From Alphaproteobacteria bacterium (lineage in GTDB: Bacteria; Pseudomonadota; Alphaproteobacteria; UBA2136), in assembly GCA_047635695.1 (NCBI GenBank), contig JBLILN010000001.1, forward strand, positions 46,559 to 110,558: a DNA stretch of 64,000 bases, given 5' to 3'. The notes under the pieces were generated by a model, which was given only the letters and a program-made list of their open reading frames with translations, was not told the origin of the DNA and searched no databases. Position numbers and translations under genes: made by a program. Shown piece by piece: positions 246 to 63,788 of this stretch (the first letter of the stretch is position 1; each line of letters starts with the position of its first letter).

Positions 246-554
246 CTACATGCCTGGTATTTGCATGCCACCTGTTACTTTATTCATTTCAGTGCTGACA
301 TGTGTTTCAACACGGTCGGCTACGTCGTTAAAAGCCACCATTAAAAGGTCTTCGAGTGTTTCAATGTCCTCTGCATCAACAACGTCTTTGTTTAATTTTA
401 TAGCGCTTACTTTGTGTTTGCAAGTCATGGTTATTTCAACGGCGCCACCGGCAGCAGAACCTGTCATTTCGTGATTTTCAAGCTCAGCTTGAAGTTTTGT
501 CATGTTTGATTGCATTTGTTGTGCTTGTTTCATCATTGCGGCCATGTTTTTCAT
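246..554 (-). CDS. ybaB: nucleoid-associated protein YbaB/EbfC
   Basis: 102 aa with MKNMAAMMKQAQQMQSNMTKLQAELE... C-terminal GGMQIPGM is typical of YbaB. It lies next to dnaX as in the conserved dnaX-ybaB locus. Confidence 0.85.
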   Translation of the reverse strand: MKNMAAMMKQAQQMQSNMTKLQAELENHEMTGSAAGGAVEITMTCKHKVSAIKLNKDVVDAEDIETLEDLLMVAFNDVADRVETHVSTEMNKVTGGMQIPGM

Positions 555-574
555 ATTCTATATTTCCTTTGTGA

Positions 575-1015
575 TTATAGTTCTAATTTAAAATTTCTGT
601 GGGGGATGCGTGCATCCATAAACTCATCGCCATAAGGCTTAAAGCCAAATGACTGATAAAAACCAAGGGCGTGTGTTTGCCCGCTTAAAAGGACTGTTTT
701 AATGTTTTTATCTTGAATGTCTTTGAGTATTTTCTTCATGATTTGGCGACCAACGCCATGACCACGGTAGTCTTTTGCAACGCATAGGCGTTCAATCTTT
801 ATTTCATCTATAGATATTTCACGTAAGCGCACCGTCCCTGCAACAATACCAGCCACTTTGGCAAGGTAGTGTGTACATGTATCATCTAAACCGTCAAATT
901 CTTCTTCTTCAGTTACAGACTGTTCATCCATAAAAATATCGCGGCGTAATTTATAAGATTGTTCAAGCTCGGCTTGTTCACCGATAAGGCGAATATCGAT
1001 CGCAGTTGCTATCAT
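575..1015 (-). CDS. GNAT-family N-acetyltransferase
   Basis: 146 aa with an acetyl-CoA binding motif RGHGVGRQIMKKIL (Q/RxxGxG/A) and GFKPYG. It is inserted between dnaX and ybaB. Confidence 0.75.
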   Translation of the reverse strand: MIATAIDIRLIGEQAELEQSYKLRRDIFMDEQSVTEEEEFDGLDDTCTHYLAKVAGIVAGTVRLREISIDEIKIERLCVAKDYRGHGVGRQIMKKILKDIQDKNIKTVLLSGQTHALGFYQSFGFKPYGDEFMDARIPHRNFKLEL

Positions 1016-1033
1016 TTATTTTACCTCATTCAT

Positions 1034-2677
1034 TTAGTTTGTATTTACTTTTACCACTTCTGAGCCGGGGAATGCATCTAAAATCTTTCGAATTTCAGAA
1101 GATTTTAACGCTTTTTCTTTGCGTTCGCTCGCTTCTCTGGTGAGTGTTTCAGCCAATGTTTCATTTGTATTTTCACTGTCAAACGATATATGCCAACGCT
1201 TGGCTGTTGTTTTAAAAAGCGCTTCGCTTAATTTCTTATGCAGTTCGTCTTGGCTGCGCAGGCCTTTAACGAACATAAGTTCAAGCTTTTTATCTGTAAT
1301 AGATTCCGCTCTAATTTGCGTTTCGAGCGAGCCTGCTAAAGGGCTAAACTCATGACGCAATGAATTTACCAATGTACGCCAAGCTTCGGCACAGTTTGAT
1401 ACTTGTGGTTCAGCTTGAACCGCCACTTCTTTTTGAGGTGCGGCAGTTGTGGCTGTTGGTTGAGCAGTTTGACGAGGCTCTAAAGGAGCCTCAGACGGCT
1501 TTTTTACGGAGGGTGACCCCGCATTCGCTGCCATCTCGATCAGGGCGCTCATCGCTGGTAGTGGTGCCATGTGTGTAACACGGATAAGCCCCATTTCAAC
1601 AATTTCAAATGGCCTTGTGCCTGCTTTAGCTTCTGTGACCACGGTCAACAACATTTGGTAAGCACGGGAAAGGTTTTCAAGACCGAGCTTTTCACTTAAT
1701 TGAATGCCACGTGTTTTTTCAAGTTCACTTAATGTATTTGATTGAACCAAGCTTGGTATTGTTTTAAGCCTTGTAATAAGGTGTGCAACTGAAAGAAGAT
1801 CACTGACAATTAACATCGGGTCGTGCCCTGTTTCATGCATGCTATTCAGCTTTTCAAGCATTTGCGTAATATCGCCTGCCATTAAAGCTTCAAAAAGGTC
1901 GTAGGCACGGGCACGGTCGGCCATGCCTAACATACCATTTACCGTTTCAATATTTACTTTTTCACCCGCACTTAATGCAATGGCTTGATCAAGCAATGAA
2001 AGACCATCACGGGCAGACCCATCAGCGGCTTTGGCAATTTGCATCACCGCAGCAACGTCAAATTCAACCGCTTCTTTTTCTAAAATGCCTGTGTAAAGGC
2101 CGCATAAATCTTCGGCGCTAATACGCTTAAGGTCAAAACGCTGGCAACGTGAAAGAACGGTAACAGGTATTTTATTTACTTCTGTTGTGGCAAAGATGAA
2201 TTTGACATGTGTTGGTGGTTCTTCCAACGTTTTAAGCAAGGCGTTAAATGCTTGCTTAGAAAGCATGTGCACCTCATCAATAATATAGACTTTGTACTTG
2301 CCTTGTACAGGGGCGTAATTCACACCTTCAAAGAGTGAGCGAATGTCGTCCACACCTGTGTGTGATGCGGCGTCAAATTCAAGTACGTCAACATGGTTGC
2401 CATTTTCAATGGCTTTGCAGTTTGCATCGTCTTCTGCCCATGTAATAGAAGGGCCATTTTCGCAGTTCAAAACCTTTGCAAGCAGGCGGGCAGTGGTTGT
2501 TTTACCTGTGCCTCGAATACCTTGTAGCACGTAAGCGTGGTGCAATCGGTTGCTTTCTACGGCATTTTTAAGTGTACGCACCAATGCGTCTTGGCCGACA
2601 ATATCGGCAAACGTTGTTGGGCGGTATTTTCTCGCCAGAACGAGATAATCTGTTTTGCCTTTGGCTTGTTCTACCAC
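1034..2677 (-). CDS. dnaX: DNA polymerase III subunit gamma/tau
   Basis: 547 aa. It has a clamp-loader AAA+ N-terminus (YRPTTFADIVGQ, Walker A GTGKTT, SRC motif LSRCQRF). It uses a GTG start with an AAGGGG SD. Confidence 0.9.
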   Translation of the reverse strand: MVEQAKGKTDYLVLARKYRPTTFADIVGQDALVRTLKNAVESNRLHHAYVLQGIRGTGKTTTARLLAKVLNCENGPSITWAEDDANCKAIENGNHVDVLEFDAASHTGVDDIRSLFEGVNYAPVQGKYKVYIIDEVHMLSKQAFNALLKTLEEPPTHVKFIFATTEVNKIPVTVLSRCQRFDLKRISAEDLCGLYTGILEKEAVEFDVAAVMQIAKAADGSARDGLSLLDQAIALSAGEKVNIETVNGMLGMADRARAYDLFEALMAGDITQMLEKLNSMHETGHDPMLIVSDLLSVAHLITRLKTIPSLVQSNTLSELEKTRGIQLSEKLGLENLSRAYQMLLTVVTEAKAGTRPFEIVEMGLIRVTHMAPLPAMSALIEMAANAGSPSVKKPSEAPLEPRQTAQPTATTAAPQKEVAVQAEPQVSNCAEAWRTLVNSLRHEFSPLAGSLETQIRAESITDKKLELMFVKGLRSQDELHKKLSEALFKTTAKRWHISFDSENTNETLAETLTREASERKEKALKSSEIRKILDAFPGSEVVKVNTN

Positions 2678-2873
2678 TGCATTCCCCTTAAAAAAATAAA
2701 TTAAATATAGTTACGTGAAAGTTATACACCAACTGCCCATATAAGGCAAAAAATCCATGCCTTAAATGCTTTATTTTTACATAAAGGTTGATAAAATCAT
2801 GTGGAAATTATATTGTGTGGGTACTTATATTGTATACCTTATCTTTTCTTTTTAAATCTTAGGAGGTTCTCCT

Positions 2874-3179
2874 ATGTCAAATATAATCTTATTTAATGGC
2901 GCGCATTTAACATCAAACCCGACGCAAATCGTCACAGTTTGTAAAGTTGTTAAAAATGGAGCGCATATTAAAGTGCCTGTTTATAATAAAATGAATGACC
3001 GACGTTTCCGTAACATCTTTGATGACTATAATTATATACCCGTACCTGTGGGTAGCTACATTTTAACCGACTCTGATGGGCTAGAATTTTCCATTACATT
3101 TGAAGTTTTATCATTGCATTATAAACCTTTAAATAACACGCTTATGGGCGCCGACGGTATGTATCAAATTATTGTTTAA
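2874..3179 (+). CDS. hypothetical small protein (paralog A)
   Basis: 101 aa with a strong SD AGGAGG 7 nt upstream. The C-terminus ...HYKPLNNTLMGADGMYQII resembles that of the next ORF. Confidence 0.5.
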   Translation: MSNIILFNGAHLTSNPTQIVTVCKVVKNGAHIKVPVYNKMNDRRFRNIFDDYNYIPVPVGSYILTDSDGLEFSITFEVLSLHYKPLNNTLMGADGMYQIIV

Positions 3180-3206
3180 ATTCATTCAACTTCAAGGAAT
3201 ATTCCG

Positions 3207-3464
3207 ATGCAGGGAAATCTTGTTTATTTACGTAAAGTTACCAAAAAACAAGGCGAGTTGATTAGAACTTGCCCTATGGATACCCGTGGTTTTGCCGCTA
3301 AAAGCAAACTTGTCAGAGACATTAAAGTTCTTTGTGGGTCTTTTATTGGCACCTATAATGGCGACGATTTTATTTTAACAATTGATGAACTAACAGCAAA
3401 ATATAAACCTGTTAAAGCCACTGTTAGTGGTGAAACCGTTTGGTACCAACTTAAAACATCTTAA
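3207..3464 (+). CDS. hypothetical small protein (paralog B)
   Basis: 85 aa with SD AAGGAA. The C-terminus YKPVKATVSGETVWYQLK aligns with ORF A and weakly with the GxWxWKK family in the flagellar locus. Confidence 0.5.
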   Translation: MQGNLVYLRKVTKKQGELIRTCPMDTRGFAAKSKLVRDIKVLCGSFIGTYNGDDFILTIDELTAKYKPVKATVSGETVWYQLKTS

Positions 3465-3474
3465 ATATCGCAAA

Positions 3475-3507
3475 AAACACTCTATTTATACAGGGTGTTT
3501 TTTTTAT
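3475..3507 (+). terminator. rho-independent terminator
   Basis: Stem acactct/agggtgt with an 8-nt loop followed by T8. Confidence 0.5.
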
Positions 3508-3605
3508 GCACTTGTAGTTGATGGGGAATGAGCTTACTTAAATAATAAGTAGAATCACTTATTCTTTTTTTGGCGTTTTGTCCGTTAACTTTGGAGGACA
3601 TATTT

Positions 3606-4058
3606 ATGTCTGATCAACCAGAACAACGCACTACAAATATTTTTAGTTTGAGTGCGCTTTTATTTTTTATATCCATCATTGCTTCGCTGATATTTTTTGG
3701 CTCTTTTGAGCTTACTATATTTTCAGCAGTCACTGTATTTCTAGTGTGGGGTGTTTTGATTTCTTTATTTGCCTATAATCGAATTGATAAAGGTGTTTAT
3801 TGTTGTTTAGCGTTTGCGTTCGTTGCGTTGGTTGCTTTCGTGTCGCCTATGGAGAGCACCTCTGCTGTAAGTTTGCAAAAATCTATAGGTCAGGTGCCAA
3901 AGGTGGCCGTTTCTGCTGTTATCTGTAGAGATGATATTTGCCAAGCATCTCTTGATGAGGTGCGTCAAAATAATGAAAAGCAACGGCATTATGATAGGGA
4001 GATGTTTGGTGTGAGGCTAAAAGCACTTGATGCTAGTTTTTATTTACCTACCAACTAA
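3606..4058 (+). CDS. hypothetical membrane protein
   Basis: ATG at 3606 preceded by a GGAGGA SD. There are two predicted TM helices (FSLSALLFFISIIASLIFF, VFLVWGVLISLF). Confidence 0.5.
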   Translation: MSDQPEQRTTNIFSLSALLFFISIIASLIFFGSFELTIFSAVTVFLVWGVLISLFAYNRIDKGVYCCLAFAFVALVAFVSPMESTSAVSLQKSIGQVPKVAVSAVICRDDICQASLDEVRQNNEKQRHYDREMFGVRLKALDASFYLPTN

Positions 4059-4076
4059 ACCGTATATAGCGAAAAA

Positions 4077-4103
4077 AAGACCTCCTTAAGGAGGTCTTTT
4101 TTG
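4077..4103. terminator. bidirectional rho-independent terminator
   Basis: aagacctcc-ttaa-ggaggtctt flanked by A- and T-runs, between convergent genes. Confidence 0.6.
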
Positions 4104-4148
4104 TTTCTGGTTGTTCTTATTGTGATGGGATAACTGCGATCAAACGTA

Positions 4149-5069
4149 CTACGTTTGCATTAACGCTTTGGCGTAAGCCTTGGCTTCAAAGGGGCGCAGG
4201 TCTTCAACGCTTTCACCAATGCCAATAAAGTGTACGGGTAGTTTATGTTTATCGGCTAAGGCCACAACAACACCACCTTTGGCTGTGCTATCAAGCTTGG
4301 TGATCACAATACCCGAAACGCCAGCCACTTTTTTAAAAGCTTCGGTTTGCATATGGGCGTTTTGACCAACGGTGGCGTCGAGCACTAATATGGTCGCGTG
4401 CGGTGCCGTTTCGTCATGTTTTTTCAGGACACGGATAACTTTTGCCAATTCGTCCATCAGTTCCTTGCGGTTTTGCAAGCGACCCGCTGTGTCGGCAATT
4501 AAAATATCTACACCTGCGGTTTTGGCTTCTTCGTAGGCTTTAAATATAACGCCTGCAGGGTCGGCACCTTCTTTGTGTGGTTTCACAATGGGTATGCCAT
4601 TTCTGTCCGCCCAAACGCTTAATTGTTCAACCGCACCCGCACGGAAAGTATCTCCCGCAGCCAGCATCACGCTTTTGCCTTCGGCTTTATATTTGGCGCT
4701 GAGTTTACCTATGGTTGTTGTTTTGCCGCTACCGTTAACGCCCACCATCATAATAACGGCAGGGCCATCTAGGTTTTTGGGTAGGTTAATGGCTTGTTCG
4801 CAAGGGGCAAGCTTGGCTTCAATTTTTTCACTTAAATAGTCGCGTAATTCTTCTTCTGTTGTTTCTTTGTCGAAGCGGTCACGGCGTAGAGAGTCGACCA
4901 ATGATAGTGACGTTTCCACACCCATATCGGCAGCAATGAGTACCTCTTCCAGTGCTTCACAAGTATCGTCGTCAACCTTCTTGCGTACAAGAATGTCTTT
5001 TAAACCTTCGCTGATACCCGTGGATGATTTTTTTAAACCGTCTTTAAGTTTGCTAAACCAACTTGCCAT
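4149..5069 (-). CDS. ftsY: signal recognition particle receptor FtsY (NG domain only)
   Basis: 306 aa with GVNGSGKTTTIGKL, DTAGR and TKLD GTPase motifs. ATG at 5069-5067. Confidence 0.9.
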   Translation of the reverse strand: MASWFSKLKDGLKKSSTGISEGLKDILVRKKVDDDTCEALEEVLIAADMGVETSLSLVDSLRRDRFDKETTEEELRDYLSEKIEAKLAPCEQAINLPKNLDGPAVIMMVGVNGSGKTTTIGKLSAKYKAEGKSVMLAAGDTFRAGAVEQLSVWADRNGIPIVKPHKEGADPAGVIFKAYEEAKTAGVDILIADTAGRLQNRKELMDELAKVIRVLKKHDETAPHATILVLDATVGQNAHMQTEAFKKVAGVSGIVITKLDSTAKGGVVVALADKHKLPVHFIGIGESVEDLRPFEAKAYAKALMQT

Positions 5070-26492: not shown

Positions 26493-28298
26493 TTAAACAA
26501 TGTTTACAAGCGTCTCAAGCATCTCATCCACAAGGGATATGATGCGCGCTGAGGCTTGGTAACTACGTTGAAATACAAGTAGGTTAGATAGTTCTTCGTC
26601 AATGTTCACGCCAGCAGTTCCGCTGAGACGTGTTTCCATGTCGGTTAATATAGCTTCGTTAAATTCTTGCGTTTTACTTGTGTCTTGTAGGCGGATAGCA
26701 AGGTTACTAGAAATACTAATGAAATATTCATTTATGCTTTTTGATTGCACAGCAAGGCTACCAGCAGCGGCAAATGTAACAGGTGCCTCTGAAAGCAGTG
26801 CGAGCTCAATAATATTACGGTTATCAAGGAATGATACACCGCCATCTGTGTCACGCATACGGGCTGTGGCCACACGTGCCGGGTCGGCAATAATGTCGGC
26901 GCGAATGGCCATGTCTGTGGCATTTTCACCTGTGAAGAAATTGTTGACACCTATTTCGCCAAGTACGTTACCAACGTTATTTTTCATGACAACACCGTGT
27001 GCAGCATTGTTTGCTGTAATACGTAGTTGTTCGTCGCCATTTGTGTCAATGAATGTTGAGGCTGTCACGTCCACATTCACATCTGGGTTTGCGTTAATAG
27101 CGTTTGCAATATCAGTTAAGGTTGTTGGTGCGACGGCAATTGTGAGAGATCCGACACCGCCACCAGCAAGTAATGTTGTTGAAATAGGTGAGCCTGTTGC
27201 GATATCAATAATTGAAATATCAAAGCTGTCGCCGACGTTAATGTCCAATTCGGCTGTAATATCAGCGCCAGCACCAGAAAGTTCTATGCCATTACCAGAG
27301 TCAAGTTGGTTTAATGGTGGGATCGATGTACCTTGGCTGTGTATGCGGTTGAAGCTATCAATCATGTTTGCAGCAAGGTTGTTTACTTCAGCGAGCAAGT
27401 TAACCATTTCTGTATCACGTACATCAACAAGGCCTTTTATGCTGCCGTCAGTCATGCGATTGGTTAAAATAGGGAACACAATAGTGCCAGGTATACCGTC
27501 TTCAGTAAAAGGTCTTGTGGAAATATCTTGGAATGTTGATGGTGCAACCGCAGGGGCTCTTTCAAGCTGAACATAGCTTGTGTCGACAAGGCGTCTACCT
27601 GTTTCTGTTGAAACAGATGCACGGTCAAGGCTGTCATAAATAACATTCACATTCATGTGTTTGGCAATGGTGTTAATTTGGCGAGAGCGTTCGTCAATAA
27701 GGTCGTTGGCATTTGCACCACCGTTTTTAACAACACCAAGAGAAACAATTTCTTTGTTCAGGGTGTCAATTTTACGAATAGCTTCGTTCACTTCAACAAT
27801 AGCAGAGTCAATTTGTGCATCGGCGCGGAATTGTGCACCGACAATTTCGTTCGACAAGTTTTTAAGAGAGTCGACGACGAATTCAGCGTTTTTAACAGCG
27901 TTAAGCTGTAGTGATGTAGAATCTGGCGCATTGGCCAAGTTTGACATGTCACTAAAAAAATTACCTATAACCTTTTCAAGGCTAGTGTTCGCCCCAGGTG
28001 TACCGAAAAGAACTTCAAGGTTATCCATGAAAGTACTTTTTGCTTCATCATAACCAACGGCAGAAACTTGTTCTGTGATACGTTCACTTAAAAAGTTGTT
28101 GGTGACCTGGCGAATATCATTAATACCAACACCACCACCAAAACCTTCAATGGCAATGTTACCTGTGAGGACTTGCTGACGTGTATAACCTTCAGTATGG
28201 ACGTTAGAGATGTTGTGTGAGATGGTGCTGATAGTTGTTTGCGTTGTTTGCATCGAACTAATGGCAATACCAAGTGTGGAATTAAGTGTAGCACCCAT
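26493..28298 (-). CDS. flgK: flagellar hook-associated protein 1 FlgK
   Basis: 601 aa. N-term GIAISSMQTTQTTISTISHNISNVHTEGYTRQ and C-term LLVFQRSYQASARIISLVDEMLETL. Confidence 0.9.
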   Translation of the reverse strand: MGATLNSTLGIAISSMQTTQTTISTISHNISNVHTEGYTRQQVLTGNIAIEGFGGGVGINDIRQVTNNFLSERITEQVSAVGYDEAKSTFMDNLEVLFGTPGANTSLEKVIGNFFSDMSNLANAPDSTSLQLNAVKNAEFVVDSLKNLSNEIVGAQFRADAQIDSAIVEVNEAIRKIDTLNKEIVSLGVVKNGGANANDLIDERSRQINTIAKHMNVNVIYDSLDRASVSTETGRRLVDTSYVQLERAPAVAPSTFQDISTRPFTEDGIPGTIVFPILTNRMTDGSIKGLVDVRDTEMVNLLAEVNNLAANMIDSFNRIHSQGTSIPPLNQLDSGNGIELSGAGADITAELDINVGDSFDISIIDIATGSPISTTLLAGGGVGSLTIAVAPTTLTDIANAINANPDVNVDVTASTFIDTNGDEQLRITANNAAHGVVMKNNVGNVLGEIGVNNFFTGENATDMAIRADIIADPARVATARMRDTDGGVSFLDNRNIIELALLSEAPVTFAAAGSLAVQSKSINEYFISISSNLAIRLQDTSKTQEFNEAILTDMETRLSGTAGVNIDEELSNLLVFQRSYQASARIISLVDEMLETLVNIV

Positions 28299-28458: not shown

Positions 28459-28716
28459 TTATAAGGCAGGCCTAATATGGTATGTTATAATTCTGATTGT
28501 CTTTCTCCATAGCCAACCCCCACTTTCTTTATAAGGCATATCTGAAGACATGATCACAGTATAACCTTCATTTTCTAAGGTCTTGATTATGTCTTTGTTG
28601 CTAAAGCTGTAGTTTACAGGTTTAGGTAGAAATGTAAGTGTGACGGAATCTTTTAATTGAGTTTTAAAACTATCAATAACGTCTTGTGTAATATCCGTTA
28701 TTTTTGGTGCTTTCAT
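28459..28716 (-). CDS. hypothetical small protein P1 (GxWxWKK family)
   Basis: ATG 28716 with AGGAGAG SD, 85 aa. The C-terminus YKESGGWLWRKTIRII is shared with P2/P3. Confidence 0.5.
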   Translation of the reverse strand: MKAPKITDITQDVIDSFKTQLKDSVTLTFLPKPVNYSFSNKDIIKTLENEGYTVIMSSDMPYKESGGWLWRKTIRIITYHIRPAL

Positions 28717-28974: not shown

Positions 28975-29409
28975 TTAAATGTCTTTGTTAACAAGCTTCG
29001 TTGAAGGTTGGTGTTGGTTCATTGTACCTGTTTTGCCATAAGTGTTGGCTTTTGGTTTTTTAATTTCAACAGCTGTACGTACAAGGTTTAAAAAGTCATT
29101 TGTCACGGTGTAGGCGGCTTGCAAAAGTGTTATGTTTTTGCGTGCAGCTGACTGGTAATTGTCAATACATGCTTGTAGCTCAGGCATTTTTGCGAGCGCA
29201 CCTTCATCGGCTTTAATTTTGTGCACAGATGTTTTAATGGTGGAAAGTAATTTTTCAACTTTAGCGGCAAGGTGACGCTTTTCTTTGATTTTACCTTCAA
29301 TAGCATCCATGTCTCTGTCTTTAAGCAGAGCATTTTCATCATGTAATAAAGTTGCAAATTTTTCACATGATTCTATTGTGTTCGATACAAGTTCTATGGC
29401 ATGGCTCAT
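28975..29409 (-). CDS. FlgN-like flagellar chaperone (putative)
   Basis: 144 aa, helical. It lies downstream of flgI and the rod-binding gene, in the position FlgN occupies. SD AGGAGA. Confidence 0.45.
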   Translation of the reverse strand: MSHAIELVSNTIESCEKFATLLHDENALLKDRDMDAIEGKIKEKRHLAAKVEKLLSTIKTSVHKIKADEGALAKMPELQACIDNYQSAARKNITLLQAAYTVTNDFLNLVRTAVEIKKPKANTYGKTGTMNQHQPSTKLVNKDI

Positions 29410-29738
29410 TGGTTGTTCTCCTGTATTTTAAGTAATTGGTCGTAAATGGTATCGGCTATGCCAATGCCACCGGCTTTTGTCATGGCATCCGCAACATGTT
29501 CGTTGCGAATTTGACGAAACATTTCTTCACCCTTACCACCATCAAAGCCTTCAGCTGTACCTGGGTCGGTCAGTTCGAGCATTTGATAGAGAAAGAATGA
29601 TTCAAAGTCATGGGCGGCTTTTTCGGCCTTTTCAGCAGAGCTCTTACTTGGCGCAAGGAACTTAACACTACTTGCGCGCTGAAGTTCTGGGGCACTTCCG
29701 TATTGTTTGTTGGCTGTCGCTGTACTGAGTATATCCAT
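29406..29738 (-). CDS. flagellar rod-binding protein (FlgJ N-domain-like)
   Basis: 110 aa. FESFFLYQMLELTD is the hallmark of Rod_binding/FlgJ N-terminal domain proteins. Confidence 0.7.
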   Translation of the reverse strand: MDILSTATANKQYGSAPELQRASSVKFLAPSKSSAEKAEKAAHDFESFFLYQMLELTDPGTAEGFDGGKGEEMFRQIRNEHVADAMTKAGGIGIADTIYDQLLKIQENNQ

Positions 29739-29753
29739 GGGTTCATACCTTTC

Positions 29754-30875
29754 TTACATAATCACTATTTCTGCTTGCAATGCGCCTGCAGATTTGATGG
29801 TTTGTAGAATACTAATAATGTCGCGTGGTGACACACCAAGGGCGTTTAAACCATCGACAAGGTCGGCAAGGTTTGCACCGCTATCGATAACGTGAAACTT
29901 TGCTGTCTCTTCATCAACTTCAATGGCTGTGGCTGGTACAGCGGCAGTAATACCGTCGCTAAAGCCGTCAGGTTGAATAATGTCAGTCAACTCTGTGACA
30001 CGAATGTTTAAGTTGGCATGTGAAATGGCGACATCACTAATTTGTACGCCAGCACCCATAACAACAGTACCTGTTTTTTCGTTGATAATAATTTTTGCGG
30101 CTGCGTCAGGGCGCACATATGTATTTTCAATTTTGTGAATGATAGGTACCAAGTTGTCACGTAAAGCAAGTGGAACGGCAATGTCGATTGTTTGGTTGTC
30201 TAAAGCTTTGGCAATAGGCTCGTTAAATGTTTTATTGATAGCGTCTTTTAAGCGTAATGCCGTTGTAAAATCGGGGTTACGTAGGATAATGCGTAGTCTT
30301 TTGCTGTCAGATAGTTCGTGGCCTGTTTCCATTTCAATAGTGGCACCGCCAGCAATGTGACCAGATGTCGGGTGGTTTTTTGTCACCGTACCAGCTCTAC
30401 CTGTTGTGGTGAACCCACCAATAACCACAGGGCCTTGCGCAATGGCGTAAGTTTGGCCGTCGGCAGCAATAAGAGGGGTTGCTAAAAGTTGTCCGCCTTC
30501 AAGAGATTTTGCGTCACCCAGTGAAGAAGCTGTAATGTCAATTTTACTACCTTGACGGGCATAAGAAGGCATGTTGGATGTGATCATCACAGCAGCAACG
30601 TTTTTCGTTTTAATTTGTGCTTCGGCAGCCTTGGCGTTGACGCCTAGCTTTTCGAGCATGTTAATTAACGTTTGGCGTGTGAAGGGAATAGAGTTTGCAC
30701 TGTCGCCTGTGCCGTTTAAACCAACCACAAGGCCATAACCGATAAGAATGTTACTACGAACACCTTCAAAGTCGGCAATGTCTTTAATGCGTGAAACAGG
30801 GTTTGAGGCAAAGCTTGAACCCGCCATTAGGCAAATCATAACTGTGGTTGTGAAAAATCTTATCATTTTTTTCAT
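29754..30875 (-). CDS. flgI: flagellar P-ring protein FlgI
   Basis: 373 aa with a signal peptide and IGYGLVVGLNGTGD. Confidence 0.9.
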   Translation of the reverse strand: MKKMIRFFTTTVMICLMAGSSFASNPVSRIKDIADFEGVRSNILIGYGLVVGLNGTGDSANSIPFTRQTLINMLEKLGVNAKAAEAQIKTKNVAAVMITSNMPSYARQGSKIDITASSLGDAKSLEGGQLLATPLIAADGQTYAIAQGPVVIGGFTTTGRAGTVTKNHPTSGHIAGGATIEMETGHELSDSKRLRIILRNPDFTTALRLKDAINKTFNEPIAKALDNQTIDIAVPLALRDNLVPIIHKIENTYVRPDAAAKIIINEKTGTVVMGAGVQISDVAISHANLNIRVTELTDIIQPDGFSDGITAAVPATAIEVDEETAKFHVIDSGANLADLVDGLNALGVSPRDIISILQTIKSAGALQAEIVIM

Positions 30876-31232: not shown

Positions 31233-31562
31233 TTAATTTTCAGTGGGTTCTAAGGGCTTTGTCCACGCAATAGCGATGGTATAAACTTGCTTTTTCCAGA
31301 ACCAAGAACCTGTTTGCGTATGGCTTACGTGTGCCGATATATCGGTTAGGTTTAATTTAGAAATTTTATTTTGAACATAGTCATCGTAAGCTTGGCGAAG
31401 TTCTTCTGTTTTTGCGTGGTTGTTAAATTTAAATTCCAATGCAAGGTAGCTACCGAGAGAGCTTTCGTCTCTAGTGTTTTCCTGTATTTCAATGAGGTTG
31501 CTGTCTATTCTGACTTTACCATGGGCTTCATCGATAACAATGCTATTTGTAATTTTAGACAT
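31233..31562 (-). CDS. hypothetical small protein P2 (GxWxWKK family)
   Basis: 109 aa. YLALEFKFNN...TGSWFWKKQVYTI is homologous to P3 over about 55 aa and to P1. Confidence 0.5.
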   Translation of the reverse strand: MSKITNSIVIDEAHGKVRIDSNLIEIQENTRDESSLGSYLALEFKFNNHAKTEELRQAYDDYVQNKISKLNLTDISAHVSHTQTGSWFWKKQVYTIAIAWTKPLEPTEN

Positions 31563-31571
31563 AATTTTCTC

Positions 31572-31955
31572 CTAAATTTCAGTTTCAACATCAGTGATGT
31601 CGGACGTTCTTTTAATAGCGTTGACTTCAAGAACAAAAAAATGTTCTTTCCACCATAAAATTCCAGTAGAGAGAATGCTTACGCTAGACTTTATTTCCAT
31701 CTTCAAGTTTTGATTTTCAATATGAGTTTTTAGGTGATCTTCTAACATTTCAGCTTTAATTTCGGGGTAGCTGCAGTTATTAAAAAAATGTGAATATTTT
31801 AAATATTTTGAGCCAAAGCCTGAGCGGTGGTCAAAATCACTCAGCTTTTCAACTATTTCTTCTATATAGTTATACTCTTCTTTAGAAAGCCTTATAACGC
31901 TTTCATTGAAGGAACGGGCGCATCGTGGCTCAGTTATATTCATCGATTTCTTCAT
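31572..31955 (-). CDS. hypothetical small protein P3 (GxWxWKK family)
   Basis: 127 aa. YLKYSHFFNN...STGILWWKEHFFVL. It lies 9 nt upstream of P2 and overlaps P4 by 4 nt. Confidence 0.5.
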   Translation of the reverse strand: MKKSMNITEPRCARSFNESVIRLSKEEYNYIEEIVEKLSDFDHRSGFGSKYLKYSHFFNNCSYPEIKAEMLEDHLKTHIENQNLKMEIKSSVSILSTGILWWKEHFFVLEVNAIKRTSDITDVETEI

Positions 31956-32404
31956 AATTTTCTCCCTGCTGGAGGTGGTGAGCTGGGCTTTTTATCGCCT
32001 AAAAATTTAGTTAGGGTGTCGGCGCTGTTGGGTTTGGGTAATTGAACCTCGAATACAAAAAGGTAACTATTGGTGAGAAATGTAAATAAGATAAAATCTT
32101 TGCGCTGACGTTGCTTAAAAAAATCTATTACTATAATGCCTTTGTTTATAAGTTGTTGGACTAATGTATCCTCAAATAAATTTGCTTTATTAATAGGGCA
32201 GGCGCGGTCACTGAAATTTGCGCTCATATAAACGTATTCAGATACATCTTTAGACGTCTTTAATTCTTTTAAAGCAGTTTCAGCGAATTCATCAATGGAA
32301 TCAGTGTCTTTTATGCTCATTAAGGGTTTTTTGTCGCCCTTTTGTTTTTTGATATTGGTTATAGTATTACCCTCCGTTAAAGGGTGTTTTGATTTTGAAA
32401 TCAT
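31952..32404 (-). CDS. hypothetical lysine-rich protein P4 (first gene of P4-P3-P2 unit)
   Basis: ATG 32404 with AAGGAGA SD. Lys-rich N-terminus, hydrophobic FILFTFLTNSYLFVFEV core and a proline-rich tail. Confidence 0.45.
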   Translation of the reverse strand: MISKSKHPLTEGNTITNIKKQKGDKKPLMSIKDTDSIDEFAETALKELKTSKDVSEYVYMSANFSDRACPINKANLFEDTLVQQLINKGIIVIDFFKQRQRKDFILFTFLTNSYLFVFEVQLPKPNSADTLTKFLGDKKPSSPPPAGRKL

Positions 32405-59952: not shown

Positions 59953-60029
59953 TGGTAGGGCGAGAGGGACTTGAACCCCCGACCAAAGCATTATGAGTGC
60001 TCTGCTCTAACCAACTGAGCTACCGCCCC
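59953..60029 (-). tRNA. tRNA-Met (anticodon CAU; elongator-type, could alternatively be lysidine tRNA-Ile2)
   Basis: 77-nt cloverleaf on the minus strand: GGGGCGG-UA-GCUC-AGUUGGUUA-GAGC-A-GAGCA-CUCAUAA-UGCUU-UGGUC-GGGGG-UUCAAGU-CCCUC-UCGCCCU-A-CCA, with an encoded CCA. Confidence 0.85.
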
Positions 60030-63375: not shown

Positions 63376-63401
63376 ATTGTTTGTTTAGAAAATAAAGCAG
63401 T

Positions 63402-63788
63402 TTACCTATAAGCCGGGTCATGTACTCAAATAACATTACATTATAAGGCGATTATCATTCATCTAGGCGTTACATTACTATAACGCTCAAGCGACCTACC
63501 CGTTCCTTCTCACACGAGAAATGCTTATTCAAGCGAACTTGAAGCGAGGAACCTATTTGGTCTTGCACCGGATGGGGTTTACCATACCCAAAGTTGTTAC
63601 CAACTTGGTGGTGCGCTCTTACCGCACCGTTTCACCTTTACACGGGCCAAAGCCCATGAAGTCTATTCTCTGCTGCACTTTCCGTTAGCTTGCGCTACCT
63701 GGACGTTATCCAGCATCCTTCTCTATGGTGCCCGGACTTTCCTCTCGTTTGTAAACAAACCAGCGATAATCCAGTAAACTGCCAAGGC
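63402..63788 (-). ncRNA. rnpB: RNase P RNA (bacterial type A)
   Basis: The minus strand contains GAGGAAAGUCCGGGC (P4), GGUAAGAGCGCACC, GGUAAACCCCAUCCGGUGCAAGACCAAAUAGG, GGGUAGGUCGCUUGAGCG and GCCUAGAUGAAUGAUAAUCGCC. The ends pair as P1 (GCAGUUUAC / GUAAACUGC). Confidence 0.8.

What the first reader, a model, noticed from the sequence alone, without database searches (positions are those of the whole stretch)
2874..3464. Tandem pair of small paralogous genes upstream of dnaX, possibly distant members of the same GxWxWKK family
ORF A (101 aa) and ORF B (85 aa) sit 27 nt apart with strong SDs and a shared terminator. Their C-termini align (A: HYKPLNNTLMGADGMYQII; B: KYKPVKATVSGETVWYQLK). The B tail (SGETVWYQLK) also resembles the P1/P2 tails (SGGWLWRK / TGSWFWKK). 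If related, the genome carries at least five copies in two loci.
Basis: partly seen in the sequence, partly recalled or inferred. Interest (0 to 1): 0.5.

Follow-up and report, generated by a model that had tools for sequence, protein, structure and literature searches.

The report
Tandem duplicate of an orphan small gene
Two small neighbouring genes beside dnaX are real, related copies of a tiny protein family found only in one group of marine alphaproteobacteria, they are not related to the flagellar-cluster "GxWxWKK" proteins, and their function remains unknown.

Summary
ORF A (2874-3179) and ORF B (3207-3464) are as described: 27 nt apart, each with a Shine-Dalgarno site, and one terminator hairpin after B. 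They are true paralogs. BLASTP gives E 9e-7, and an HMM built only from orthologs in other genomes finds A (E 9e-28) and B (E 3e-6, full length).

The family is very narrow. Among 1.84 billion representative proteins only two other clusters match. Every member with genomic context sits in the same place, divergent from dnaX and before ftsY, in marine metagenome contigs. It is single-copy there, so the duplication was seen only in this genome.

Orthologs are under purifying selection (dN/dS 0.08-0.20) but evolve fast: 31-41% identity against 72% for DnaX. B has lost the N-terminal tail and the RFRN and NY motifs that are invariant in A and its orthologs.

The proposed link to the P1-P3 GxWxWKK proteins is not supported. 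hhalign probability is 0.06-0.2%, no better than permuted controls, and the predicted secondary-structure patterns differ.

The AlphaFold model (pLDDT 77) is a small beta-rich protein with no significant PDB match. It has only a marginal resemblance to a phage family of unknown function (phrog_419). This is an ordinary lineage-restricted gene of low interest.

The parts
2788..2831 (+). Two overlapping sigma-70-like promoter candidates (TTGATA-17-TATTGT and TGGAAA-18-TATATT) in the dnaX/ORF A divergent intergenic region
   Evidence: Consensus scan. Relatives have TTGACA-type sites at the matching place in the intergenic alignment. Consensus match only; not shown to be functional.
2836..2847 (+). 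ACCTTATCTTTT, a short block kept about 25-45 nt upstream of the start codon in all five aligned loci. Likely a 5'-UTR or promoter-proximal element.
   Evidence: Intergenic alignment of the window with L003, L010, L012 and L013. Not enriched elsewhere in the window: 5 matches against 3.2 expected.
2861..2866 (+). Shine-Dalgarno site AGGAGG of ORF A, 7 nt before the ATG
   Evidence: Read from the sequence
2874..3179 (+). ORF A, 101 aa. The full-length member of the family and the ortholog of the single-copy gene in relatives.
   Evidence: AlphaFold2 model: pLDDT 76.6, pTM 0.66.
3194..3199 (+). Shine-Dalgarno site AAGGAA of ORF B, 7 nt before the ATG
   Evidence: Read from the sequence
3207..3464 (+). 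ORF B, 85 aa. A diverged tandem paralog of A that lacks the N-terminal tail, has a 4-residue deletion, and has lost the RFRN and NY motifs.
   Evidence: pI 9.5 against 6.8 for A.
3470..3509 (+). Intrinsic-terminator-like hairpin with a T-run, closing the A-B unit
   Evidence: RNA fold -13 kcal/mol, z -5.1, 0 of 200 shuffles as stable

Best explanation
**Shown.** ORF A and ORF B are two real protein-coding genes that probably form one short operon: a promoter-like site, two Shine-Dalgarno sites and one terminator. They are paralogs within a very narrow, previously unnamed family of about 100-residue cytoplasmic proteins. The family was found only in a group of marine alphaproteobacteria. In the relatives, a single copy sits at this same position, divergent from dnaX and ahead of ftsY. 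The duplication was seen only in this genome.

- A keeps all family hallmarks. These are a conserved N-terminal peptide, M-[AS]-x-I-[IH]-x-F, in a tail predicted to be disordered, and invariant RFRN, NY, GS, G, L, Y and G..Y positions.
- B keeps the core pattern (GS.I, G, L, YKP, Y) but has lost the tail and the RFRN/NY motifs and has become basic.

**Inferred, low confidence.** The protein is a small soluble beta-rich binding module. The model has nine short strands and one short helix. Its C-terminal half is loosely like SH3, chromo or HypC-type small barrels. I propose it acts through protein-protein contacts made by the conserved RFRN/NY surface and the N-terminal peptide. B would then be either a decaying duplicate or a copy with changed partner specificity. 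No biochemical function can be assigned.
For: - **Coordinates and signals:**
- **Paralogy:** BLASTP E 9e-7. An ortholog-only HMM finds A at E 9e-28 and B at E 3e-6 across profile positions 9-101.
- **Narrow distribution:** the word-index search of 5.8 billion proteins finds only self. Full HMMER over 1.84 billion representatives finds only P0003 and P0004, plus one false positive. A profile search adds P0006-P0008. The GTDB species genomes gave no true hit. The viral contigs gave none, and the metagenome-contig scan returned only another copy of P0003.
- **Synteny and single copy in relatives:**
- **Purifying selection:** dN/dS is 0.08-0.20 among P0003, P0006, P0007 and P0008.
- **Fast evolution:** A is 31-41% identical to its orthologs, while DnaX is 68-72%, FtsY 72% and YbaB 74%.
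- **Structure:** the model has pLDDT 76.6 and pTM 0.66, with residues 1-10 below pLDDT 50.
- **Motif loss in B:** alignment.
- **A+B-only residues** (M40, T75) suggest that the duplication occurred within this lineage.
Against: - No family, structure or defence-system match gives a function: Pfam, PHROGs, NCBIfam, PADLOC and PDB sequences.
- The fold assignment therefore rests on one medium-confidence model built from seven sequences.
- The binding-module mechanism is inference only.
- Synteny with dnaX is part of a long conserved block (recR, arsC, ybaB, GNAT, dnaX | A | ftsY, TPR), so it does not by itself imply a functional link.
- All three sources of this locus are 100% identical or carry exactly the same protein, so selection on B cannot be measured.
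Confidence: 0.85

Rival explanations
1. A and B are distant members of the same family as the flagellar-cluster proteins P1-P3 (GxWxWKK tail), so the genome carries five or more copies in two loci.
Against:
- The score of 8.9 is equalled by 140 of 200 permuted controls.
- HMMs of each family find only their own members among 1015 window ORFs.
- BLASTP of B against P1 and P2 gives E 1.7-2.1.
- The W in B's tail is not conserved in the A family.
- The secondary-structure patterns differ.
Confidence: 0.03
2. The family is a domesticated relative of a widespread phage small-protein family (phrog_419/1810/4502). That family has a C-terminal GDYIIxGxxGEFYPCKPDIFExTYE module, is sometimes fused to MazG-like nucleotide pyrophosphohydrolase, and weakly overlaps Pfam PGDYG. 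A/B would share that module and perhaps its unknown role.
For: - Foldseek against BFVD gives top hits at E 4.8e-4 (TM 0.56) and E 2.7e-3 (TM 0.58). Weaker hits go to Arthrobacter-phage proteins, entries named 'PGDYG protein', and a MazG fusion.
- hhalign of the A family against 10 phage members gives E 0.004. It aligns GSYI..G.EF.I..E.L..YKP with GDYII.G.GEFYPCKPDIFE.TY, and 0 of 200 permutations reach that score.
- The A/B region has a lower GC content, 33-36%, than its flanks, 44-48%.
Against: - With a deeper 41-sequence phage alignment the score falls to 18.0 (probability 2.9%, E 0.016), and 9 of 200 permutations reach it.
- The phage HMM does not hit A or B.
- PHROGs and Pfam scans of family members find nothing.
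- tblastn of P0003 against 50,697 phage records finds nothing below E 3.
- I picked the phage family after seeing the Foldseek list and recalling a motif from memory, so the test is not blind.
- The gene is fixed in chromosomal synteny.
- The phage family itself has no known function, no Pfam model that its members reach and no solved structure.
Confidence: 0.2
3. A and B form a two-gene functional module of unlike parts, such as a toxin-antitoxin pair or a small defence system.
For: Two small adjacent co-oriented genes of 101 and 85 aa with one terminator, an acidic/basic pairing (pI 6.8 and 9.5), and low GC.
Against: - The two proteins are homologous to each other over B's full length.
- Relatives carry only one gene at the locus.
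- There are no PADLOC, Pfam or NCBIfam hits.
- The gene is syntenic across the four clusters of relatives with context (P0003, P0006-P0008) rather than mobile.
Confidence: 0.03
4. B is a non-functional, decaying duplicate, a young pseudogene that still has an open frame. Only A carries the family's function.
For: B has lost the N-terminal tail, has a 4-residue deletion, and has lost the RFRN and NY motifs that are invariant in A and all orthologs. B is unique to this genome in 1.84 billion representative proteins.
Against: The frame is intact for 85 codons, with its own Shine-Dalgarno site at the correct spacing. The core positions are retained (GS.I, G, L, YKP, Y) and the hydrophobic pattern looks preserved by eye. 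The ortholog-only HMM aligns it end to end.
Confidence: 0.3

Closest known systems
Phage small-protein family phrog_419 / phrog_1810 / phrog_4502 (N-terminal module of MazG-fusion phrog_4159). Function unknown.
   Same: Similar size (about 70-110 aa). Both are beta-rich with a C-terminal strand-turn-strand-short helix module following the pattern G-[SD]-Y-I-I ... G-x-E ... [DE]-x-[FL] ... Y-[KE]-P. Foldseek hits in BFVD and a weak hhalign match fall exactly on that module.
   Different: Sequence support is marginal and weakens with a deeper alignment. The N-terminal halves do not align. The A family lacks the YPCKPD core and the KKPV start. It is chromosomal and syntenic rather than phage-borne.
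Pfam PF14083 (PGDYG protein). Function unknown.
   Same: Some BFVD structural hits are named 'PGDYG protein'. The phage family above touches positions 2-34 of that model, below the cut-off.
   Different: No A-family member hits PF14083 even at E up to 1 (up to 10 for A and B themselves). The PGDYG motif itself is absent; the family has KGSYI or VGSYI there.
Small beta-barrel domains of the SH3, chromo, Tudor or HypC type
P1-P3 GxWxWKK proteins of the same window (28459-28716, 31233-31562, 31572-31955, minus strand)
   Same: Small, unannotated, tandemly or locally duplicated genes in the same genome.
   Different: No sequence or profile similarity. The predicted secondary structure differs. The context differs too: they lie in a flagellar cluster next to flgK, flgN, a rod-binding protein and flgI.

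Membership tests
GxWxWKK family (P1-P3 of this window) | C-terminal G-x-W-x-W-[KR]-[KR] motif followed by a hydrophobic strand | tested here: not met
   A has GADGMYQII and B has GETVWYQLK. There is no W-x-W. B's single W is not conserved in its own family.
GxWxWKK family (P1-P3 of this window) | Detectable profile similarity to the P1-P3(-P4) alignment | tested here: not met
   hhalign probability 0.06-0.2%. 140 of 200 permutations score as high. HMM cross-searches are negative.
GxWxWKK family (P1-P3 of this window) | Same predicted fold | tested here: inconclusive
   The secondary-structure patterns differ: nine short strands plus a 7-residue helix, against two strands, an 18-residue helix and two strands. 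The P2 model has pLDDT 49.7, and no superposition tool was available.
A/B family (this report: A, B, P0003, P0004, P0006-P0008) | Full-length match to a profile built from orthologs of other genomes | tested here: met
   A at E 9e-28 and B at E 3e-6; next-best window ORF at E 5.4.
A/B family (this report) | Invariant RFRN and NY motifs and the conserved N-terminal M-[AS]-x-I-[IH]-x-F peptide | tested here: met
   Met by A and by all orthologs, not by B. B has GFAA and RD at those columns and lacks the tail.
A/B family (this report) | Position between divergent dnaX and convergent ftsY | tested here: met
   Seen in the window and in L003-L008, L010, L011, L013, L014 and L016. L012 shows the dnaX side only. 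P0004 has no context because its contig is 501 bp.
Phage phrog_419-like family | Match to the PHROG profile or to an HMM of family members | tested here: not met
   No PHROG hit for A, B, P0003, P0004 or P0007. The phage HMM does not hit A or B.
Phage phrog_419-like family | Profile-profile and structural similarity over the C-terminal module | tested here: inconclusive
   hhalign gives E 0.004 with 0 of 200 permutations reaching it. With the deeper alignment it gives E 0.016 with 9 of 200. Foldseek BFVD's best hit is E 4.8e-4, TM 0.56.
Pfam PF14083 PGDYG | Score at or above the gathering cut-off (27 bits) | tested here: not met
   No hit for any of the seven members.
Type II toxin-antitoxin or other known defence pair | Two unlike partners matching known toxin, antitoxin or defence profiles | tested here: not met
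   A and B are homologous to each other. There are no PADLOC or Pfam hits. Relatives have a single gene.

The most novel reading that the evidence does not exclude
The family could be a small regulator that docks onto the replication machinery, either the beta sliding clamp or the clamp loader. Docking would go through its conserved, disordered N-terminal peptide: NIILF in A, EIIPF or TIHVF in orthologs. From my own knowledge, this loosely recalls the QL[SD]LF clamp-binding motif, which the Hda protein carries close to its N-terminus. Such a role would give a reason for its fixed position head-to-head with dnaX. B, which lacks the peptide, would then be a non-docking variant. Nothing here tests this. 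It rests on a motif resemblance recalled from memory and on gene position.
Probability: 0.05. Interest if true: 0.6.

Novelty: new member of a known kind. Interest (0 to 1): 0.18.

Why it matters
It matters little. The result tidies the annotation. The two ORFs are real genes and define a tiny lineage-restricted family with one duplication seen only in this genome. They should not be pooled with the flagellar-cluster GxWxWKK proteins.

The family is a clean small example of a fast-evolving but constrained taxonomically restricted gene, whose duplicate has shed the conserved motifs. It would become interesting only if the conserved N-terminal peptide or the faint phage resemblance turned out to point to a replication-linked or phage-linked role.

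Tried and rejected
- **Library scans.** Pfam, PHROGs, NCBIfam and PADLOC scans of A, B and the orthologs gave nothing usable.
- **P0005.** This 1440-aa eukaryote-type Ig-repeat protein was rejected. Its E of 1.7e-5 is the sum of ten repeats scoring 0.9-6.9 bits each. It is not hit by the better family profiles.
- **Butyrivibrio locus L015.** Rejected. The match is an RFRNVLDDFN string inside a 429-aa ORF whose neighbouring ORFs look like polysaccharide-synthesis genes (my reading of the translation, not scanned).
- **Collection scans.** The genome contigs and viral-contig scans added no new members, and the metagenome scan returned only another copy of P0003. One alignment was too divergent to scan with.
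- **Rfam.** No RNA family lies in 2500-4300.
- **PilZ-type motifs** (RxxxR and D/NxSxxG). I looked for these by eye and did not find them.
- **The conserved upstream block ACNTTATCTTTT.** Tested as a possible regulon motif and not enriched in the window.
- **Literature.** Searches for PGDYG and PF14083 gave nothing relevant.

Full report
**1. The observation**

The window has ORF A at 2874..3179 (101 aa) and ORF B at 3207..3464 (85 aa), both on the + strand and 27 nt apart.
- AGGAGG (2861-2866) lies 7 nt before A's ATG, and AAGGAA (3194-3199) lies 7 nt before B's ATG.
- A hairpin with a T-run follows B at about 3470-3509. It folds at -13 kcal/mol with z -5.1, and none of 200 shuffles is as stable.
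- dnaX is at 1034..2677 on the minus strand, so the pair is divergent from it. The 196-nt spacer between them holds sigma-70-like sites.
- No Rfam family lies in the region.

**2. A and B are paralogs**

BLASTP aligns the C-terminal 45 residues at 38% identity, E 9e-7.

A stricter test used an HMM built only from orthologs found in other genomes, with neither A nor B in it. Among 1015 six-frame ORFs of the window it finds A at E 9e-28 and B at E 3e-6. The B match spans profile positions 9-101. The next ORF scores E 5.4. B is therefore homologous over its whole length, not only in the tail.

**3. The family**

- Word-index searches of 5.8 billion proteins find only A and B themselves. NCBI names them as hypothetical proteins of an "Alphaproteobacteria bacterium" MAG.
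- A full HMMER pass over 1.84 billion cluster representatives with the A+B profile adds P0003 (102 aa, E 2e-13) and P0004 (108 aa, E 4e-13).
- It also adds P0005, a 1440-aa Ig-repeat protein. That hit is the sum of ten repeats scoring 0.9-6.9 bits each, and it vanishes with better profiles, so it is a false positive.
- A profile search adds P0006, P0007 and P0008.
- Scans of one genome per GTDB species and of IMG/VR found no further true member. A scan of JGI metagenome contigs returned only another copy of P0003. The one Butyrivibrio hit is a chance motif inside a 429-aa ORF.

Every member with usable context lies at the same place: divergent from dnaX and before a convergent ftsY. The surrounding block is recR, arsC, ybaB, GNAT, dnaX | gene | ftsY, TPR protein. 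These loci are marine metagenome contigs, including Tara Oceans. In all of them the gene is single-copy. In L003 only 29 nt separate it from ftsY. The tandem copy B was therefore seen only in the window genome. B's cluster has no other member in the 1.84-billion-representative library. Residues shared only by A and B (M40, T75) suggest that the duplication occurred within this lineage.

**4. Coding status and evolutionary rate**

Among the closer orthologs P0003, P0006, P0007 and P0008, dN/dS is 0.08-0.20 with dS of 0.9-1.6. This frame therefore encodes a protein under purifying selection.

The family also evolves fast. A is 31-41% identical to its orthologs. Between the same genomes, DnaX is 68-72% identical, FtsY 72% and YbaB 74%. 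The A/B region has 33-36% GC against 44-48% in dnaX and ftsY.

**5. Anatomy**

The alignment of A with its five orthologs shows these invariant positions: M1, I4, F7, V22, P35, R44-F45-R46-N47, N53-Y54, V57, G60-S61, I63, G69, E71, I74, L79, Y83, G95 and Y97.

B differs in several ways:
- It lacks the first 14 or so residues.
- It has a 4-residue deletion.
- It has GFAA in place of RFRN and RD in place of NY.
- It keeps GS.I, G, L, YKP and Y.

A has pI 6.8, the close orthologs 5.1-5.5, and B 9.5. No member shows an obvious signal peptide or membrane segment by eye, and all have low overall hydrophobicity; no predictor was run.

The AlphaFold2 model of A, built with the seven-sequence alignment, has pLDDT 76.6 and pTM 0.66. 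It has nine short strands and one short helix (76-82). Residues 1-10 fall below pLDDT 50. The conserved N-terminal peptide therefore sits in a tail predicted to be disordered.

**6. Comparison with known families and folds**

- Pfam, PHROGs, NCBIfam, PADLOC and PDB sequences give nothing.
- Foldseek against the PDB has a best E of 0.66.
- Foldseek against BFVD gives two unnamed viral proteins at E 4.8e-4 (TM 0.56) and E 2.7e-3 (TM 0.58). Weaker hits go to Arthrobacter-phage proteins, entries called "PGDYG protein", and a MazG-fusion protein.

I followed the BFVD lead as follows.
- I wrote a consensus for a phage family from memory. It retrieved real members in 890 phage records.
- These members belong to phrog_419, phrog_1810 and phrog_4502, all of unknown function, and to the MazG fusion phrog_4159.
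- None of the seven members scanned reaches any Pfam model's cut-off, and the family has no solved structure.
- hhalign of the A family against ten members gives score 21.8 and E 0.004. It aligns the module GSYI..G.EF.I..E.L..YKP with GDYII.G.GEFYPCKPDIFE.TY. None of 200 column permutations reaches that score.
- With a deeper 41-sequence alignment the score drops to 18.0 (E 0.016), and 9 of 200 permutations reach it.
- The phage HMM does not hit A or B, and tblastn of P0003 against phage genomes finds nothing.

I treat this link as marginal. It is a possible shared module, not an established membership, and the phage family has no known function either.

**7. The proposed relation to P1-P3**

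The GxWxWKK proteins lie at 28459-28716, 31233-31562 and 31572-31955 on the minus strand. A probable fourth member lies at 31952-32404. They sit in a flagellar cluster between flgK, flgN, a rod-binding protein and flgI. P2 and P3 are related to each other (BLASTP E 3e-6).

Tests against the A/B family were all negative:
- hhalign probability is 0.1% and 0.2%.
- The score of 8.9 against the four-member alignment is reached by 140 of 200 permuted controls.
- HMMs of each family find only their own members in the window.
- BLASTP of B against P1 and P2 gives E 1.7-2.1 without aligning the tails.
- The P2 model is two strands, an 18-residue helix, then two strands. That differs from A's pattern, but its pLDDT is only 49.7, so the fold comparison alone is inconclusive.

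Overall the relation is not supported. The window holds two separate small families, not five copies of one.

**8. Mechanism**

Shown: these are real genes, they are paralogs, the family is narrow and syntenic, it is under purifying selection, and B has lost the family motifs.

Inferred: the protein is a soluble small beta-rich binding module that uses the RFRN/NY surface and the N-terminal peptide. B is either decaying or has changed partner. I put about 0.85 on the descriptive part and about 0.2 on the binding-module mechanism.

A toxin-antitoxin or defence-pair reading is unlikely. The two proteins are homologous, relatives have one gene, and no defence profile matches.

The most novel reading not excluded is that the N-terminal peptide (NIILF, EIIPF or TIHVF) is a clamp-binding-like motif, which would link the gene to its neighbour dnaX. 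That rests on memory of the QL[SD]LF consensus and on gene position only. I give it about 5%.

**9. Verdict**

- The feature is an ordinary taxonomically restricted small-gene family with one duplication seen only in this genome.
- Interest is low.

Noticed in passing
window 28459-28716, 31233-31562, 31572-31955 and 31952-32404 (all minus strand): The GxWxWKK proteins form their own local family of three clear members, plus a probable fourth without the motif. They lie inside a flagellar cluster (flgK 26493-28298, FlgN 28975-29409, rod-binding protein 29406-29738, flgI 29754-30875). They have no Pfam or NCBIfam match. P2 against P3 gives BLASTP E 3e-6. The P2 model has low confidence.
   Followed up: partly
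window 3606-4058 (+); L013 4679-5368: The slot between the A-family gene and ftsY is variable. This genome has a 150-aa ORF with several long hydrophobic stretches and its own terminator at 4073-4102. The P0008 lineage has a 229-aa ORF, also with a hydrophobic N-terminal region, that is only faintly similar (31% over 42 aa, E 0.015). The P0003 and P0006 lineages have nothing there.
   Followed up: partly
window 2836-2847 and the matching sites in L003, L010, L012 and L013: A short block, ACNTTATCTTTT, is kept about 25-45 nt upstream of the start codon in all five lineages, within an otherwise diverged intergenic region. It is not enriched elsewhere in the window.
   Followed up: partly
window 2874-3464: A and B are in the same reading frame, with starts 333 nt apart. 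They are separated by one TAA and nine codons, so readthrough of that stop would give a two-domain protein of about 196 aa. Sharing a frame has a 1 in 3 chance expectation, so it is probably meaningless.
   Followed up: no
window 2600-3800: GC content is 32-36% here, against 44-49% in the flanking dnaX and ftsY genes and 40.8% for the whole window.
   Followed up: no
window 246-2677 (minus strand); L003 6423-9828: A GNAT acetyltransferase gene sits between dnaX and ybaB, inside the usual dnaX-ybaB-recR arrangement (as I recall it). In the relatives an ArsC-family gene sits between ybaB and recR. The arrangement is conserved in this lineage.
   Followed up: no
phage loci L017-L106: A very widespread phage small-protein family (890 of 50,697 phage records; phrog_419/1810/4502) has the module GDYIIxGxxGEFYPCKPDIFExTYE. 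The members scanned reach no Pfam model's cut-off, and it has no solved structure. It occurs alone, in longer proteins, or fused to MazG-like pyrophosphohydrolase.
   Followed up: partly
window 63393-63782 (-) and 59956-60029 (-): Bacterial class A RNase P RNA (311.6 bits) and one tRNA gene.
   Followed up: no
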